This document shows, piece after piece, positions 36,677 to 64,000 of a stretch of DNA of 64,000 nt. This DNA comes from Pecten maximus (lineage: Eukaryota), in contig NC_047032.1 in assembly GCF_902652985.1 (NCBI RefSeq), positions 23,064,001-23,128,000 on the forward strand, read 5' to 3'. The position numbers were made by a program. Each line of letters opens with the position of its first letter. The first letter of the stretch is position 1.

Positions 36677-39600
36677 AACAACAAAAAACAAAAAACAAAA
36701 AAAAAAACAAAAAAAAAACACACACTGGCTGTCTTGACTGAAAAGTTTTTGTTCCAACAGTCATCTTTTTCTTTTCTTGTCACCTTCACAGTGACAGTTG
36801 ACTAACGCATAATTTCGCAGATATAGTACAGGTCATATCCGATACAGACACAATCATGCATATCGAAATTGTCTGACTTTGTAACACATCCACAAGTCTG
36901 TGACCCTCCATCGGGTTCTCCGCTAGCCCATGACCTGACAGACGTATCAACCCTCTCGTCATTACTGAGAAAAATCCAATCGTTCTCATTATTCCTCTTT
37001 CGTCCAGTGTATACTATGTCTGAGCTTGCTGAAAATATCAAGGTAAATACGTCACATAGCACGTTACCACATAACCAGCTATCATAAAAAAACAAATAGT
37101 GTTACATGTTTAATATGCATATAGAGAAACCCTAATGATGAAGGAAGACAATTGTATGAATCCTGCCCTGACCCGGCCTCGCACTCCATTGCCAGAATTA
37201 CCCGCAGCGTTTACCACTGTTCCACATCCACCTTTTTGTAAATCTTGTGTGCCCAAATGTCAATATCCATTCCTTTTACTTCCGGTTTATATTATAACAA
37301 TGTATCCTGTGTTCCTACCACAGTCCACATTGTGAGCACCAGTCTCCTATTTTGAAATCCATTGATTGAAGACAATGATAGATTGTGATATATCTAGGTT
37401 ATATATGTCAGATAAGAAAGAAATATCATTTGTGAAAATATTTTGACTCTAAAAGGTAATCACCAGGATATGGTTTCCTCATTGGATCGCTATGAATACC
37501 GGGAAAGGTGTCATTAACTGTCAAGGTAGGAGAGGTTTTCAAATTGTGTTTGATATAAAATTTGTCCAGTGATTTAATGTTGGTTGAAAGGTCTTAATGC
37601 ACACAAAACGTGACGAGTGGAATATGTAAAATAAGTTCTAGTAATATGTAAAATAGGCTCTAGGAATATGTAAATAGGCTCTAGGAATATGTGAAATAGG
37701 TTCTAGTAATATGTAAAATAGGTTCTAGGAATATGTTAAATAGGTTCTAGGAATATGTAAAATAGGTTCTAGGAATATGTACAATAGGTTCTAGGAATAT
37801 GTACAATAGGTTCTAGGAATATATAAAAATAGGTTCTAGGAATATGTAAAATAGGTTCTCACTATTTATTGAACAGTCATTGATAACTAGAACCTCACTT
37901 CAGGGCATACATACAGCTTCTGTACTGTGCTGCATCTGATAATTCAGCAGGCGTATGATTGCAGACTATTTTACATTCTATTGGAATACTTATGTTTTAC
38001 CTATTGAAATTGAGTGATGTATATACGAAGCCTTATTGCCATTTTTCTTTTTCCCAAATCGAAGCCCGATGTAGAGGATATGTAGTGTCTGTTCAAGTTT
38101 TGTCTTTGACATTGATTTAATGGTAATGAATTTACATAAAGAATATATATGATGGTGTTATAATATATAGATTTTTTTTTGACGCATCAACATTATTTCG
38201 AAAATACAATCTCAGTTGTATTCCATTTTTTGTGCGACGTTACCTTCGCCGATGGTACGTAGACATGTGATGTTATAGGAAGGAGTTTGCTGGATTATAA
38301 TGGTCAATATGTTACAATTTCGTCATTCGGAAGTAAATTTATTTACTACTAATGATATAAAAATAACTATAAAAGTAATAACCATATGATTTACTCACCA
38401 TACGGCAGAGTTCTCATTATAAATCGAGCTTCTTCATCCGACTTAATTTCGACAAGGTTTGCTCCCTTGGCATTACATCGAGTCTACAGTAAGAATAAGA
38501 CGATTGATTGAACAAATATTACGTATGAACATGCGAGGTATTTCTTGAATCCCCTCAACGCTTATTTCGTAAGAAAACATAGAATATGACAATAATTAAA
38601 AATTTAAATTGTGATGTCAGGATTTAAGTAGGATCTGACATTAGATGACATCCTTTCATACCACGAATGACATGATCGTTGACCTATCACTTTGTTTCGT
38701 TAGAGTAGAGATATAAATTCTACGAATGCTTTCAAAAAGGCGTTCAACATACATACATATGTACATTTCAAAGCTGTACAATAAACTTAGTTGAGTATAG
38801 GCATATAATGATGATTAAAATCAAAACAATACAATACCATATTATATAACACACATAAATACAACTCACTATTGCTGTAGCCCACTCTGTTTGCTCGGAA
38901 TCAGTAGAGACATAGTAACACTTTTCCGGAGATGTGATCCAGCCATCGTCACAGACTCGGGGAGTCACTGTAGTAGTGGTGGCGGTAGTCGTACGTGCTC
39001 TACTGGCTATAAATAGATAGTAAACACGTGTATCAAAACAACAAAATAATTATTACACTTTCTTGAAATCTCCTATAGAACAGATCAGGGTTTTGAAACA
39101 CATTAAAAGAGTGTACAAAAGATATAAATATATTATCGCATTTCAATTACGGGTTGATACGATAGAATATAATTAACAAGGTACAGTAGTGCAACATGTT
39201 TAGTCATTTAATTGTTAATGTATCACAGTGAAAGGATAATGTGTCCTTGATATACCTGTTACAGACCAATAAGATAATAGGTCATTTTAAAAGGACTGTT
39301 AAGTGAAGTTAGATGTTTTAAAAAAATTCAAGATTGTTCCTAAAAATAAATATGAGTCAATACTCCTTATGACAGTTTTTGACAAAATACTAACGTAATT
39401 TATTTTATTTGAAGTGAGCACTTGATATCAAGATCATTAGATCAGCGTTCGTTTACAACTGAAGCGGAAGCGGGATGGGAAATTCACGGATAGAAAATTA
39501 TCCTCACGAGTAAAATCAACAACGATGACCAGTGAGTGTATATGTCGCCATGCTGGCTTACCCAGATGTTTAGATGTTGTGCAATTTAGAATGTAAGTTA

Positions 39601-61000: not shown

Positions 61001-64000
61001 AATGAATTTATCACAATATCCACTCAGTATGAAATAACTCTATTTAGATAATATGCTTAGTCCATGATTTATAGGCATGTAAATTGCGTAGTGTATTGGT
61101 GCACGCTCGATCTAAAATAACGTGACAGAGGTGATTGTTAGCAACTTCGTTTATGGTGGGAAAACTAGGTGTATATCTGAAAAGTGAGAGTTTCGAGAAA
61201 ATTGCTGTACTTGAAAGGCACGATTCGTATAAAAAAAAAACGCCGGCTTAACGCGCTTTTCCCGTATTGCTGGTTTTGGGAGTGTAGACAGGATGGAAGC
61301 ATCAGATGACAATTCCATTTTAGTAACTTTGATGAAATGTGAATAATTCATTGCTCAATGATTAAATAGCAACTTGGTTTTCCATAGTTTTGCGTTTTGC
61401 ATATCCTGTTTTTATGGAATCCGTGATATAATTTGTTGACCGACCTACGCACATGTGTTTTGAGTTTTTATCTTCTGAAAAATATTGATCAAATTCGAAA
61501 TATCAAGGGAACATGTACTTTTCTAATTATTCGTCAATATCCATTACATCGTTCATATGCAATACTATCTTCCCCTCAATATAATGAAAACATGACCTTA
61601 CCGTCGATGTCCCCTCCGTCTAGTGTCAAACGTAAATCTTCCTGCTCATTTTCCAAAATGCGAAGATCATTTTCAAAGCCAGACAGGATTTTTGAGATAC
61701 CTTTAAGTTCATTGGATATTGATCGTTTGAACTCTAGAACCGCTTCTTTGTAACATTCACACTGATTGTCGACATCTGTCATTCCTTCGATAGCATCGAC
61801 TCTCTTTTGTAACTGACATACTGTCTCGTTTAGATTGAAATAAGTTCCGTTCAAAAGACTAACGCCTTCACTTGTTAAACTTTCGCCCTCGTATTTCTGC
61901 GATAAAACCTTGTTGTCTGAAAATACTTCTACATACTTTGATATAGAAACCAAAAAACCGAAATATATGCACGTCTTCATCTTTCTGAAAGCCTTGTTGA
62001 TATGTGCGCGTGAAATGAAGTAAAATCTCATTCCCATGTGGTTACAATCGAAATTCCCTGGTCATGTAATATCTCAGAAACCAAAAACATCGATATTATA
62101 TTTCTGCGAGATAAATAACTATACCAAAACTTAACAGTTTTACTATTTCATAAAGTATGCAAACGGCATGTGTTTATTTTGACCTTGGAGATAGCTTGAC
62201 ATCTAATATGTATACAGCGGGAAAAAAATTGCATATTTAAATATTTCAAAACCATTACTTTTCTTTTTGTAATTATCCAAGTTGACCTTCACAGAGCGGA
62301 AATTATCTATGGCCGGATTAAAAAAAAAACAATTAAAACTGATAAGAAAATTGATTAACTAATAGACAAATAAAAAATGTGAAAATAAAAATTTTAGAAG
62401 AATTCAAAATACCAGCAAAAAACATCTCCAAACTCCAAGCTGGGCCTGCTGCATAAAAATGGAAAATAAAATATAACAGTATCAGAATGTATATTTTACT
62501 TCAATATTTTCTAAAAAAAAAAAAAAAAACAACAACAACAACATTTGTTTATATCTGTTATTGCTTAAAACATATGTATATCTGTTAGTTTAAAACGCAT
62601 ATATATAACTTATAGCATAAAGCATGTAAATAACTGCAATGGCTAATCCAAAAACAGTAAATGACCTAAACTTAATGCATTCATGTGTTTGATAAAAAAA
62701 AAGTTGCAATGTGTTATGAGGCGTGTTTAAGTTTCAATTGTACAGACTGCGAAAAAAGTATCATGCTGTATGGTTTGATGATCTTATAAAATAGTTTTTT
62801 GCAAACTGTGTCCCTCTGTTGGCTGAGTTAGTTTTGTTCTCATACGAAGCTGGTTATGCTTATTAGAACAGGTAAACGAGACCAGGCAACGTCCTTCAAT
62901 TTCACGTATAGGTATATTGACAAACCTTAATGTACCATATCGATCAGATATACCCTGTATAACTTGAAATCAAGGACACTACAGACTCGTCAACATCAGC
63001 CGTTTACCTCTCTCTCACAACGCAACCAACATGGAAAGCTTACATGGAATAGTTTTCCATTTCAAGGTAGCAAACAGTGTTTACATGTCACAGTTGCCTC
63101 AGTATTCAAGGGTTTATTAACACGTTCAAGATTTGAGCAGCAGAGGTCGACTTTTGAGAAATTTACAACAAAATGTTTCGAAAGATCCGTATTAAGTATG
63201 ACTATAAATGTGATTGGCTCTCCTTTGGACAAGTTCTATCTGACTGTCCTTTGGACATGTTCTATCTGACTCTCCTTTTGACATGTTCTATCTGACTCTC
63301 CTTTGGACATGTTCTATCTGACTCTCCTTTGGACATGTTCTATCTGACTCTCCTTTGGACATGTTCTATCTGACTCTCCTTTGGACATGTTATATCTGAC
63401 TCTCCTTTGGACATGTTCTATCTGACTCTCCTTTGGACATGTTATATCTGACTCTCCTTTGGACATGTTATATCTGACTCTCCTTTGGACATGTTCTATC
63501 TTACTCTCCTTTGGACATGTTCTATCTGACTCTCCTTTTGACATGTTATATCTGACTCTCCTTTGGACATGTTCTATCTGACTCTCCTTTGGACATGTTC
63601 TATCTGTCCCTCCTTTGGACATGTTCTATCTGACTCTCCTTTGGACATGTTCTATCTGACTCTCCTTTGGACATGTTCTATCTGACTCTCCTTTGGACAT
63701 GTTATATCTGACTCTCCTTTGGACATGTTCTATCTTACTCTCCTTTGGACATGTTCTATCTGACTCTCCTTTTGACATGTTCTATCTGACTCGCCTTTGG
63801 ACATGTTCTATCTGACTCTCCTTTGGACATGTTCTATCTGACTCTCCTTTGGACATGTTCTATCTGACTCTCCTTTTGACATGTTCTATCTGACTCGCCT
63901 TTGGACATGTTCTATCTGACTCTCCTTTGGACATGTTATATCTGACTCTCCTTTGGACATGTTCTATCTGACTATCCTTTGGACATGGTCTATCAAACCA

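What the first reader, a model, noticed from the sequence alone, without database searches (positions are those of the whole stretch)
36802..61980. Three leaders and five phase-compatible CTLD cassettes: potential combinatorial lectin locus
Seen: 3 leader exons all end in phase 1 (G|gtaag), and 5 three-exon modules all start and end in phase 1, with internal phases 0 and 1 conserved (middle exon 91, 91, 91, 91, 85 nt). Modules C2 and B2 have no leader of their own, so they must be reached by tandem splicing or by skipping the first module as an alternative 3' end. Any leader-to-downstream-module or equivalent-exon swap stays in frame. Inference: the cluster could diversify sugar recognition (EPD, EPD, EPN, EPD, EPN) by alternative or read-through splicing, loosely analogous to cassette-type receptor loci.
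Basis: partly seen in the sequence, partly recalled or inferred. Interest (0 to 1): 0.7.

Follow-up and report, generated by a model that had tools for sequence, protein, structure and literature searches.

The report
Scallop tandem C-type lectin genes
This is an ordinary cluster of three neighbouring scallop lectin genes, two of which carry two sugar-binding domains spliced in series, and there is no sign yet that they mix and match their parts.

Summary
The window is from Pecten maximus.

RefSeq proteins match gene A (P0011, leader plus one CTLD) and gene C (P0009, leader plus C1 plus C2) exon for exon. So C2 is reached by tandem splicing, through a donor C|GTTAGT that contains the module's own stop codon. 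Five of five two-CTLD relatives, in Pecten and Argopecten, have the same Leu-Pro junction.

Gene B looks disabled:
- Two 1-nt insertions put its ATG out of frame.
- No protein in the database matches it.
- One of its introns has a GC donor.

Each gene has its own conserved 5' flank and its own stop. Gene A is colinear with gene B minus module B1. Phase compatibility is therefore inherited from one class 1-1 module. The diversity visible here was made at the DNA level, by duplication, module loss and gene conversion.

Nothing supports module skipping or cross-gene splicing, and no transcript data could be consulted. I rate it a new member of a known kind, of low interest.

The parts
61602..61980 (-). 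Gene A leader exon (379 nt): signal peptide plus helical neck; ends ACG|GTAAGG in phase 1
   Evidence: Exon residues 67-126 equal residues 1-60 of RefSeq P0011.
60176..60309 (-). A1 exon 1 (134 nt): Thr/Pro-rich linker plus start of the CTLD; phase 1 to 0
   Evidence: Exact substring of P0011, residues 62-105.
59106..59196 (-). A1 exon 2 (91 nt); phase 0 to 1
   Evidence: P0011 residues 106-135.
57897..58126 (-). A1 exon 3 with the EPN motif. It ends CGT TAG (stop at 57899..57897). The latent donor C|GTTAGT follows base 57902.
   Evidence: P0011 residues 137-210.
51750..52130 (-). Gene B leader exon (381 nt), frameshifted. It has 1-nt insertions at 52088 and 52056, and the ATG frame stops at 52049..52047.
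50557..50651 (-). B1 exon 1 (95 nt), with no Thr-rich linker. The acceptor ...cacctcag| is inferred and is not confirmed by any model.
   Evidence: 91% identical to the paralog P0012.
50323..50413 (-). B1 exon 2 (91 nt)
49553..49779 (-). B1 exon 3 with the EPD motif. The donor C|GTTAGT follows base 49558. The stop if unspliced is at 49555..49553.
49009..49142 (-). B2 exon 1 (134 nt), 415 nt downstream of B1
48297..48387 (-). B2 exon 2 (91 nt), followed by a GC donor at 48296..48295
47308..47531 (-). B2 exon 3 with the EPN motif; stop at 47310..47308
47245..47355 (.). Perfect 53-bp tandem duplication (2.1 copies) that spans the end of B2 exon 3 and its stop codon
   Evidence: also seen.
44488..44863 (-). 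Gene C leader exon (376 nt): signal peptide plus helical neck
   Evidence: Exon residues 66-125 equal P0009 residues 1-60. Predicted helices at 2-21, 34-63 and 77-121.
42430..42548 (-). C1 exon 1 (119 nt)
   Evidence: P0009 residues 62-100.
41278..41368 (-). C1 exon 2 (91 nt)
   Evidence: P0009 residues 101-130.
40628..40854 (-). C1 exon 3 with the EPD motif. The donor C|GTTAGT follows base 40633 and is used in the RefSeq model. The stop if unspliced is at 40630..40628.
   Evidence: P0009 residues 132-204, followed by Pro205.
38870..39006 (-). C2 exon 1 (137 nt), 1626 nt downstream of C1
   Evidence: P0009 residues 206-250.
38399..38483 (-). C2 exon 2 (85 nt)
   Evidence: P0009 residues 251-278.
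36802..37028 (-). C2 exon 3 with the EPD motif; stop at 36804..36802
   Evidence: P0009 residues 280-352.
57500..58130 (.). Block about 96-100% identical to the B2 exon 3 region and its 3' flank, while the introns are 77-92% identical. Probably a gene-conversion tract.

Best explanation
The locus holds three tandemly duplicated, separately transcribed paralogous genes of a scallop-restricted lectin family.

Each gene encodes a signal peptide, a helical neck, a Thr/Pro-rich linker, and one C-type lectin domain (gene A) or two in series (genes B and C). In the two-domain genes the first module is joined to the second by an ordinary intron. That intron's donor, C|GUUAGU, overlaps the first module's ancestral Arg-stop, so splicing removes the stop and leaves Pro at the junction.

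Gene B is probably a young pseudogene, or else carries an assembly error in its leader.

The shared phases are inherited from a single class 1-1 three-exon module. Variation in sugar-site motif (EPN against EPD) and in domain number was made in the genome. The processes were gene duplication, module gain or loss (gene A is colinear with gene B without B1), and gene conversion. It was not made by combinatorial splicing.

The products are most likely secreted, multivalent pattern-recognition lectins. Secretion, oligomerisation and sugar binding are all inferred and were not shown here.
For: Species and gene models.
- 4 of 4 gene A exons are exact substrings of RefSeq Pecten maximus protein P0011.
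- 7 of 7 gene C exons are exact substrings of RefSeq protein P0009, in order, with one residue left over at each split codon.

Tandem splicing.
- P0009 reads ...ICETL-P-SRARTTT... across the C1 to C2 junction.
- The same Leu-Pro junction occurs in 5 of 5 two-CTLD genes seen: P0003, P0005, P0009, P0010/P0012 and Argopecten P0013.
- Pfam Lectin_C matches twice in P0009, P0005, P0003, P0013 and P0010, and once in P0011 and P0002.

Independent transcription units.
- The leader plus upstream flank is conserved between genes: A 61589-62610 with B 51737-52744, and A 61631-62205 with C 44517-45086.
- No other family exon lies in the 64 kb.

DNA-level modularity.
- A 57465-60444 is colinear with B 46817-49277, and the leaders are colinear, but B1 has no counterpart in A.
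- On the exon-3 tree A1, B2 and the C-terminal domain of P0010 group together (support 94/93). B1 groups with the N-terminal domain of P0010 (97/97).
- An exon 3 plus 3' flank block is about 99% identical between A1 and B2, against 77-92% in the introns.

Gene B is disabled.
- It has two 1-nt insertions.
- Its ATG frame holds 8 stops.
- No 100% protein was found with A1/B2 exon 3 or with B1 exon 3 as query; the best match was 83-84%.

Architecture and background.
- Helices are predicted at 2-21, 34-63 and 77-121 of the leader, at mean pLDDT 62.
- The CTLD resembles solved CD23, DC-SIGN, CLEC9A and PLA2R domains, with E from 1e-14 to 1e-6.
- Swapping EPN and EPD changes mannan binding in scallop CfLec-3 (PMC4432315, passages read).
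- Class 1-1 modules are the rule for extracellular shuffled domains (PMC8001218, passages read).
Against: - The RefSeq models are automated and both start at an internal Met (exon residue 66 or 67), without the signal peptide. I saw no transcript reads, so constitutive splicing is assumed, not shown.
- The string GCGTTAGT is invariant in all five modules. That includes the three terminal ones (A1, B2, C2), where no donor is needed. This is a hint that the donor may have a use there, or simply shared descent or conversion.
- Gene B's six module exons are all open (0 stops) although its leader is broken.
- AATAAA occurs 113 and 212 nt after the B1 stop. However, the density of such hexamers is the same in introns, spacers and intergenic DNA.
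- The deep branches of the exon-3 tree are unresolved: 6 of 13 inner branches are open.
Confidence: 0.75

Rival explanations
1. Facultative terminal or internal cassettes. The stop codon lies inside the donor C|GUUAGU. So the cell could choose between splicing, which gives a two-CTLD lectin, and termination with polyadenylation in the spacer, which gives a one-CTLD, EPD-only lectin. The same gene would then make lectins of different valency and specificity.
For: - The stop/donor overlap is present in 5 of 5 modules and invariant over 8 bases.
- The donor has T at +3 and C at -1, and matches the consensus at 5 of 9 positions.
- AATAAA lies 113 and 212 nt after the B1 stop, inside the 415-nt spacer.
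Against: - Five other accepted donors of the locus also score 5 of 9.
- No AATAAA or ATTAAA occurs in the first 1200 nt after the C1 stop.
- Hexamer density is the same in introns, spacers and intergenic DNA: 3.1, 2.9 and 3.0 per kb.
- The RefSeq name of the gene C protein carries no isoform label.
- No one-CTLD protein ending in ...ICE.LR was returned.
Confidence: 0.15
2. Leaders and modules of different genes are joined by module skipping or read-through splicing. One example would be gene A reading into the leader-dead gene B to give a three-CTLD lectin.
For: - All junctions would stay in frame, since exon lengths are 2, 1 and 0 modulo 3 in 5 of 5 modules.
- Terminal modules keep the donor string.
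- B's modules are intact while its leader is not.
Against: - 5771 nt separate A1 from leader B, and 2449 nt separate B2 from leader C. AATAAA lies 56 nt after the A1 stop and 109 nt after the B2 stop.
- Each gene keeps its own conserved 5' flank.
- There are no constant exons.
- No protein of three-CTLD length was found. Lengths were 264-434 aa among 9 hits and 177-429 aa among 6 representatives.
- No annotated isoform swaps modules.
Confidence: 0.05
3. B2 and C2 are not parts of the upstream genes. They are leaderless partial duplicates, that is, dead or independently initiated fragments.
For: - There is no leader upstream of either.
- Each first module has its own in-frame stop.
Against: - RefSeq P0009 joins C1 to C2.
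- The two-domain architecture, with the same junction, is kept in Argopecten.
- The last 135 nt before B2 exon 1 are homologous to the 3' end of gene A's first intron: 60161-60444 with 48994-49277, 90% identical.
- All six exons of B2 and C2 are open.
Confidence: 0.03

Closest known systems
Scallop multi-CRD C-type lectins (CfLec-3, CfLec-4, AiCTL-9)
   Same: - Secreted scallop lectins with several CTLDs in one chain.
- Different site-2 motifs (EPD, EPN) in the different domains.
- In CfLec-3, swapping EPD and EPN switches mannan binding (PMC4432315, passages; PMC5877582, passages).
   Different: - Those have three or four CRDs, and no helical neck is mentioned ('coiled' occurs 0 times in PMC4432315).
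- The present family has a roughly 100-residue helical neck and one or two CRDs.
- Orthology was not tested, because I had no CfLec sequence in hand.
Arthropod dual-CRD lectins with a Thr-rich region (prawn EcThr-LecA/B)
   Same: Signal peptide, two CRDs, a run of threonines, and closely related duplicated genes (PMC9680055, abstract and passages).
   Different: A different phylum. No homology was tested. The neck is not described there.
Vertebrate neck-plus-CRD lectins (CD23, DC-SIGN, langerin; tetranectin)
   Same: - A helical neck followed by a CTLD.
- They are among the nearest solved CTLDs by sequence: CD23, DC-SIGN, CLEC9A and CLEC4C at E about 1e-8 to 1e-5, after two multi-CTLD receptors at E 1e-14 to 1e-12.
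- As I recall, not checked here, the CRD of the type II receptors is also encoded by three exons.
   Different: - Most of those are type II membrane proteins with a single CRD.
- The proteins here have an N-terminal signal peptide and up to two CRDs.
- No collagen region is present, so they are not collectins.
- Intron-position homology was not tested.
Class 1-1 mobile modules (exon shuffling, Patthy)
   Same: The CTLD cassette is flanked by phase-1 introns. It occurs once or twice per gene, and it occurs behind a different N-terminal region in P0014 (PMC8001218, passages).
   Different: - The cassette is three exons, not one.
- Its 3' boundary is a donor laid over its own stop codon. My searches did not turn up a description of this, although they were narrow.
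Cassette-type diversity loci (Dscam mutually exclusive exons; clustered protocadherin variable first exons). Recalled, not examined here.
   Same: Only the arithmetic is shared: repeated units that could be exchanged in frame.
   Different: - There are no shared constant exons.
- Every unit set has its own promoter-proximal leader or its own stop.
- There is no evidence of alternative choice.

Membership tests
C-type lectin-like domain (Pfam PF00059) | Match to the Lectin_C profile above the gathering score | tested here: met
   RefSeq proteins identical to the window's exons pass the 22.6-bit cut-off: P0009 scores 56.7 bits in two stretches, and P0011 scores 30.0 bits. Single exons alone stay below the cut-off: 14.8 and 13.6 bits for 2 of 7 module exons, and no match for the other 5.
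C-type lectin-like domain (Pfam PF00059) | Site-2 tripeptide with central Pro (EPN/QPD type) | tested here: met
   EPN in A1 and B2. EPD in B1, C1 and C2 (translations).
C-type lectin-like domain (Pfam PF00059) | Second site-2 motif WND (motif recalled from general knowledge) | tested here: not met
   The corresponding position reads MHD (A1, B2, C2), MLD (B1) and MWD (C1). Only the Asp is kept, so canonical Ca2+/sugar ligation is uncertain.
C-type lectin-like domain (Pfam PF00059) | Ca2+-dependent carbohydrate binding | not testable with these tools
   Needs recombinant protein and glycan assays.
Multi-CRD scallop lectins | Two or more CTLDs in one polypeptide | tested here: met
   Met for gene C through P0009. 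Inferred for gene B from its paralog P0010/P0012. Not met for gene A, which has one CTLD.
Class 1-1 module | Phase-1 introns on both sides of the module | tested here: met
   C1: leader G|CC gives Ala61, and C|CC gives Pro205, in P0009. B1: by homology. For the terminal modules the 3' side is only a latent donor.
Class 1-1 module | The same module occurs in different architectures | tested here: met
   One-CTLD and two-CTLD proteins share the leader. P0014 has another N-terminal region.
Cassette-type combinatorial locus (Dscam or protocadherin kind) | An array of alternative units spliced to shared constant exons | tested here: not met
   There are no family exons other than the 18. Each gene ends in its own stop, and each has its own leader and 5' flank.
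Cassette-type combinatorial locus (Dscam or protocadherin kind) | Transcripts that use the units in alternative combinations | not testable with these tools
   No transcript collection was available. The RefSeq names of the gene A and gene C proteins have no isoform label.
Collectin or tetranectin-like oligomeric lectins | Collagen-like Gly-X-Y region (collectins) | tested here: not met
   No Gly-X-Y repeats appear in any leader or linker translation.
Collectin or tetranectin-like oligomeric lectins | Helical neck that forms a defined oligomer | not testable with these tools
   Helices are predicted at 34-63 and 77-121 with pLDDT up to 83. The only Pfam matches are sub-threshold coiled-coil families. 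The oligomeric state needs experiment.

The most novel reading that the evidence does not exclude
Every CTLD cassette of this scallop family carries its stop codon inside a conserved splice donor, C|GUUAGU (CGU UAG). That donor appears used at an internal position in the automated RefSeq model, and it is kept unchanged at terminal positions. This would make the cassette self-extending and reversible. A tandem copy is spliced on in frame with no mutation needed, and loss of a cassette leaves a working gene. In the living animal it could be used as a switch. The switch might select between EPD-only and EPD+EPN lectins. It might also let gene A read into the leader-dead gene B to give a three-domain lectin.
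Probability: 0.12. Interest if true: 0.55.

Novelty: new member of a known kind. Interest (0 to 1): 0.25.

Why it matters
Bivalves have very large C-type lectin repertoires, and how that diversity arises is an open question in invertebrate immunity.

This locus gives a clean small example of the ordinary route. A three-exon, phase 1-1 CTLD cassette is duplicated, lost and homogenised within a tandem gene array, with EPN and EPD sugar-site variants distributed over the copies.

The one detail of wider interest is that the cassette's stop codon lies inside its downstream splice donor. That explains how a terminal domain could become an internal one without any change to the stop. It would also allow regulated one-domain or two-domain products, if it were ever shown to be used that way.

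As it stands the finding does not reveal a new diversification mechanism.

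Tried and rejected
- Complex prediction, three copies of leader C residues 22-125. The verdict was 'no answer', so it is not used for or against oligomerisation.
- Poly(A) hexamers as a test for an alternative 3' end. Density is 3.1 per kb in introns, 2.9 in the two inter-module spacers and 3.0 in intergenic DNA. The C1-C2 spacer has 3 against a mean of 5.4 in shuffles, and 396 of 2000 shuffles had as few or fewer. The test is uninformative.
- Donor strength by matches to CAG|GTAAGT. 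C|GTTAGT scores 5 of 9, the same as 5 other accepted donors, so this measure does not show it to be 'weak'.
- Pfam on single exons. Too short: nothing reached the cut-off.
- The listing of cluster members for P0009-P0012. I therefore could not see whether the second member of P0010's cluster is a gene B model.
- Exon-3 tree. It resolves the recent pairs but not the deep split between first-position and second-position modules.
  - 16 rows were used.
  - Left out: P0008 (aberrant C-terminus, no pattern match); P0009 and P0011 (identical to the window); P0012 (isoform of P0010); P0013 and P0014 (fetched later).
- Search for three-CTLD relatives. None was found among 9 hits or 6 representatives.
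- Pfam on the 5 longest ORFs outside the lectin exons. 0 of 5 matched.
- Literature searches.
  - Searches gave no description of this neck-plus-CTLD scallop family, or of alternative splicing of bivalve CTLs.
  - PMC10140915 contains none of 'splicing', 'exon', 'coiled' or 'EPD' in its main text. Its supplements, which may list the P. maximus genes, were closed.
  - Searches gave nothing on a stop codon inside a donor as a route to domain duplication.
- Genome contigs holds only bacteria and archaea, so no other scallop genome could be compared.
- I did not build or search a joined spliced sequence.

Full report
What is there.

The region 36802..61980 carries 18 exons of one lectin family, all on the minus strand. 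A stop-to-stop ORF listing and the sequences around the pieces gave the candidate exons. Anchoring on the splice sites gave their coordinates.

- There are three leader exons: 61980..61602, 52130..51750 and 44863..44488. Each starts at an ATG and ends ACG|GTAAG.
- There are five three-exon modules: A1, B1, B2, C1 and C2. Their exon lengths are 2, 1 and 0 modulo 3 in 5 of 5 modules.
- The middle exons are 91, 91, 91, 91 and 85 nt.
- The sugar-site tripeptide is EPN in A1 and B2, and EPD in B1, C1 and C2.
- tblastn with nine family proteins at E<=1 found 19 intervals in the 64 kb. These are the 18 exons and one weak hit (54333..54470, E 0.2). So there is no hidden leader in front of B2 or C2, and no further module.
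- The window has no N.

Whose genome, and what the annotators made of it.

I searched exon by exon. I did not build or search a joined spliced model, and that step was left out.

The leader C exon found 9 proteins among 518 candidates, all from scallops: Pecten maximus 4, Ylistrum balloti 2, Argopecten irradians 2 and Mizuhopecten yessoensis 1. A1 exon 3 found 3 proteins among 5 candidates.

Two RefSeq Pecten maximus proteins are encoded by this window.

- P0011 ('perlucin-like protein', 211 aa) contains 4 of 4 gene A exons as exact substrings.
- P0009 ('uncharacterized protein LOC117316692', 353 aa) contains 7 of 7 gene C exons as exact substrings.

In both, the exons lie in order, with one residue left at each split codon. 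The window is therefore scallop, not human, and the exon boundaries of genes A and C are independently confirmed. Both models start at an internal Met of the leader exon (residue 67 or 66) and so lack the signal peptide that the open exon encodes. I take this for 5'-truncated transcript models, but I cannot show it.

How C2 and B2 are reached.

P0009 reads ...FYICETL-P-SRARTTT... The first module's last exon is spliced after base 40633 to base 39006. Every module ends ...C|GTTAGT. Read through, this is CGT TAG (Arg, stop). Spliced, the C joins CC or CA of the next exon 1 and gives Pro.

The same Leu-Pro junction is found in 5 of 5 two-CTLD genes that the searches returned: P0003, P0005, P0009, P0010/P0012 and Argopecten P0013. 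Of 12 complete C-termini, 11 end in Arg at exactly that position. P0013 runs four residues further. P0008 and P0012 were set aside for aberrant or alternative ends.

Pfam finds Lectin_C twice in the two-domain proteins and once in the one-domain proteins.

Gene B.

Leader B carries two single-base insertions relative to A and C, at 52088 and 52056. From its ATG the frame stops after 27 codons. The conserved neck frame has only an internal Met with no signal peptide before it.

Searches with A1/B2 exon 3 and with B1 exon 3 returned no protein identical to gene B. The best match was the paralog LOC117316155 at 83-84%.

B2's middle exon has a GC donor. A perfect 53-bp tandem duplication also spans the end of B2's last exon. 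All six module exons of B are still open. Gene B is thus a young pseudogene, or the assembly is wrong at the leader. Either way, only two intact leaders are in evidence.

Separate genes, shared history.

The leaders and their upstream flanks are conserved between genes:

- A 61589-62610 with B 51737-52744, at 81%;
- A 61631-62205 with C 44517-45086, at 73%.

This speaks for three promoters.

Gene A is colinear with gene B except that B1 has no counterpart. A 57465-60444 matches B 46817-49277. That match includes 135 nt of intron in front of exon 1, so the B1-B2 spacer ends like gene A's first intron.

On a tree of the exon-3 segments (16 rows; rows left out are listed under Tried and rejected), two groupings are supported:

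- A1, B2 and the second domain of P0010 group together (94/93).
- B1 groups with the first domain of P0010 (97/97).

The deep branches are open.

Exon 3 and about 400 nt of 3' flank are about 96-100% identical between A1 and B2, while the introns are 77-92% identical. This looks like a recent conversion tract. P0014 shows a like CTLD behind a different N-terminal region.

The phase agreement is therefore inherited from one class 1-1 cassette. That is the usual kind for extracellular shuffled domains (PMC8001218, passages). The reshuffling that can be seen happened in DNA.

What the proteins probably do.

The leader exon gives a hydrophobic N-terminus and two long predicted helices, 34-63 and 77-121, with pLDDT up to 83 and a mean of 62. 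Pfam gives only sub-threshold coiled-coil hits for it. It is a narrow family: 6 representative clusters at E<=0.001 among 1.84 billion proteins.

The CTLD resembles solved vertebrate CTLDs. The best matches are two multi-CTLD receptors, PLA2R and an IgY receptor, followed by CLEC9A, CLEC4C, CD23 and DC-SIGN. The canonical WND (recalled) is replaced by M-H/L/W-D, so canonical Ca2+ ligation is not assured.

In scallop CfLec-3, changing EPD to EPN confers mannan binding and the reverse change removes it (PMC4432315, passages). Multi-CRD scallop lectins bind more ligands than single-CRD ones (PMC5877582, passages).

I infer secreted, probably oligomeric pattern-recognition lectins in which one-domain and two-domain versions, and EPN and EPD sites, broaden the range. 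None of this was measured here.

The combinatorial idea.

Nothing I could examine supports module skipping, an alternative 3' end or cross-gene splicing.

- The RefSeq names of the gene A and gene C proteins carry no isoform label.
- The two isoforms of the paralog LOC117316155 differ by an intronic first exon and by a different end inside the last exon. They do not differ by module choice.
- No protein of three-domain length turned up.
- Poly(A) hexamers do not discriminate.

Two observations keep the idea from being closed. The eight bases GCGTTAGT are invariant in all five modules, including the three terminal ones. And gene B keeps open modules behind a dead leader. Both are also explained by recent descent and conversion. 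Only transcript data can settle it, and none was available. Supplements of PMC10140915 were closed, the listing of cluster members was off, and no eukaryotic genome collection was on hand.

Verdict.

This is a tandem array of paralogous neck-plus-CTLD lectin genes, already modelled in RefSeq, of a kind well known in bivalves. It is a new member of a known kind, and I score its interest at 0.25. The stop-in-donor cassette boundary is the one feature worth a follow-up.

Noticed in passing
window 52047..52130 (minus strand): Leader B has two 1-nt insertions, at 52088 and 52056, relative to leaders A and C. The ATG frame ends at a TGA at 52049..52047. The insertions do not lie in homopolymer runs, so an assembly error is possible but not obvious.
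   Followed up: yes
window 48295..48296: The donor after B2's middle exon is GC (TAG|GCGAGT), where the near-identical A1 copy has GT.
   Followed up: partly
window 47245..47355: A perfect 53-bp tandem duplication (2.1 copies) covers the last codons, stop and first 3' UTR bases of B2. The first copy keeps the reading frame and the stop.
   Followed up: partly
window 57500..58130 against 46850..47531: Exon 3 plus about 400 nt of 3' flank is about 96-100% identical between genes A and B, while the neighbouring introns are 77-92% identical. This is likely a recent gene-conversion tract.
   Followed up: partly
window 61782 and 44668 (internal ATGs of leaders A and C): RefSeq models P0011 and P0009, and the paralog P0012, all start at the same internal Met and so lack the signal peptide, although the upstream exon frame is open. 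The cause may be truncated transcript evidence or a real downstream start. I could not decide which.
   Followed up: no
not in the window (paralog LOC117316155, same 33.25-Mb contig): A close two-CTLD paralog of gene B has two annotated isoforms. X1 starts in the intron before the first module. X2 ends early inside the last exon of the second module. Its leader is 95% identical to leader A.
   Followed up: partly
window 1..36000 and 63218..63994: The rest of the window is largely satellite and minisatellite DNA:
- 20-bp unit x269 at 11074..16510;
- 34-bp unit x38 at 7139..8440;
- 42-bp unit x22 at 5703..6646;
- 31-bp unit x41 at 20907..22173;
- 47-bp unit x29 at 25207..26591;
- 72-bp unit x13 at 7..944;
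- 26-bp unit x30 at 63218..63994.
The five longest ORFs outside the lectin exons match no Pfam family.
   Followed up: partly
leader exons (all three): The neck region is a narrow family. Only 6 representative clusters at E<=0.001 were found in 1.84 billion proteins, and all 9 named relatives of the leader are from Pectinidae.
   Followed up: partly
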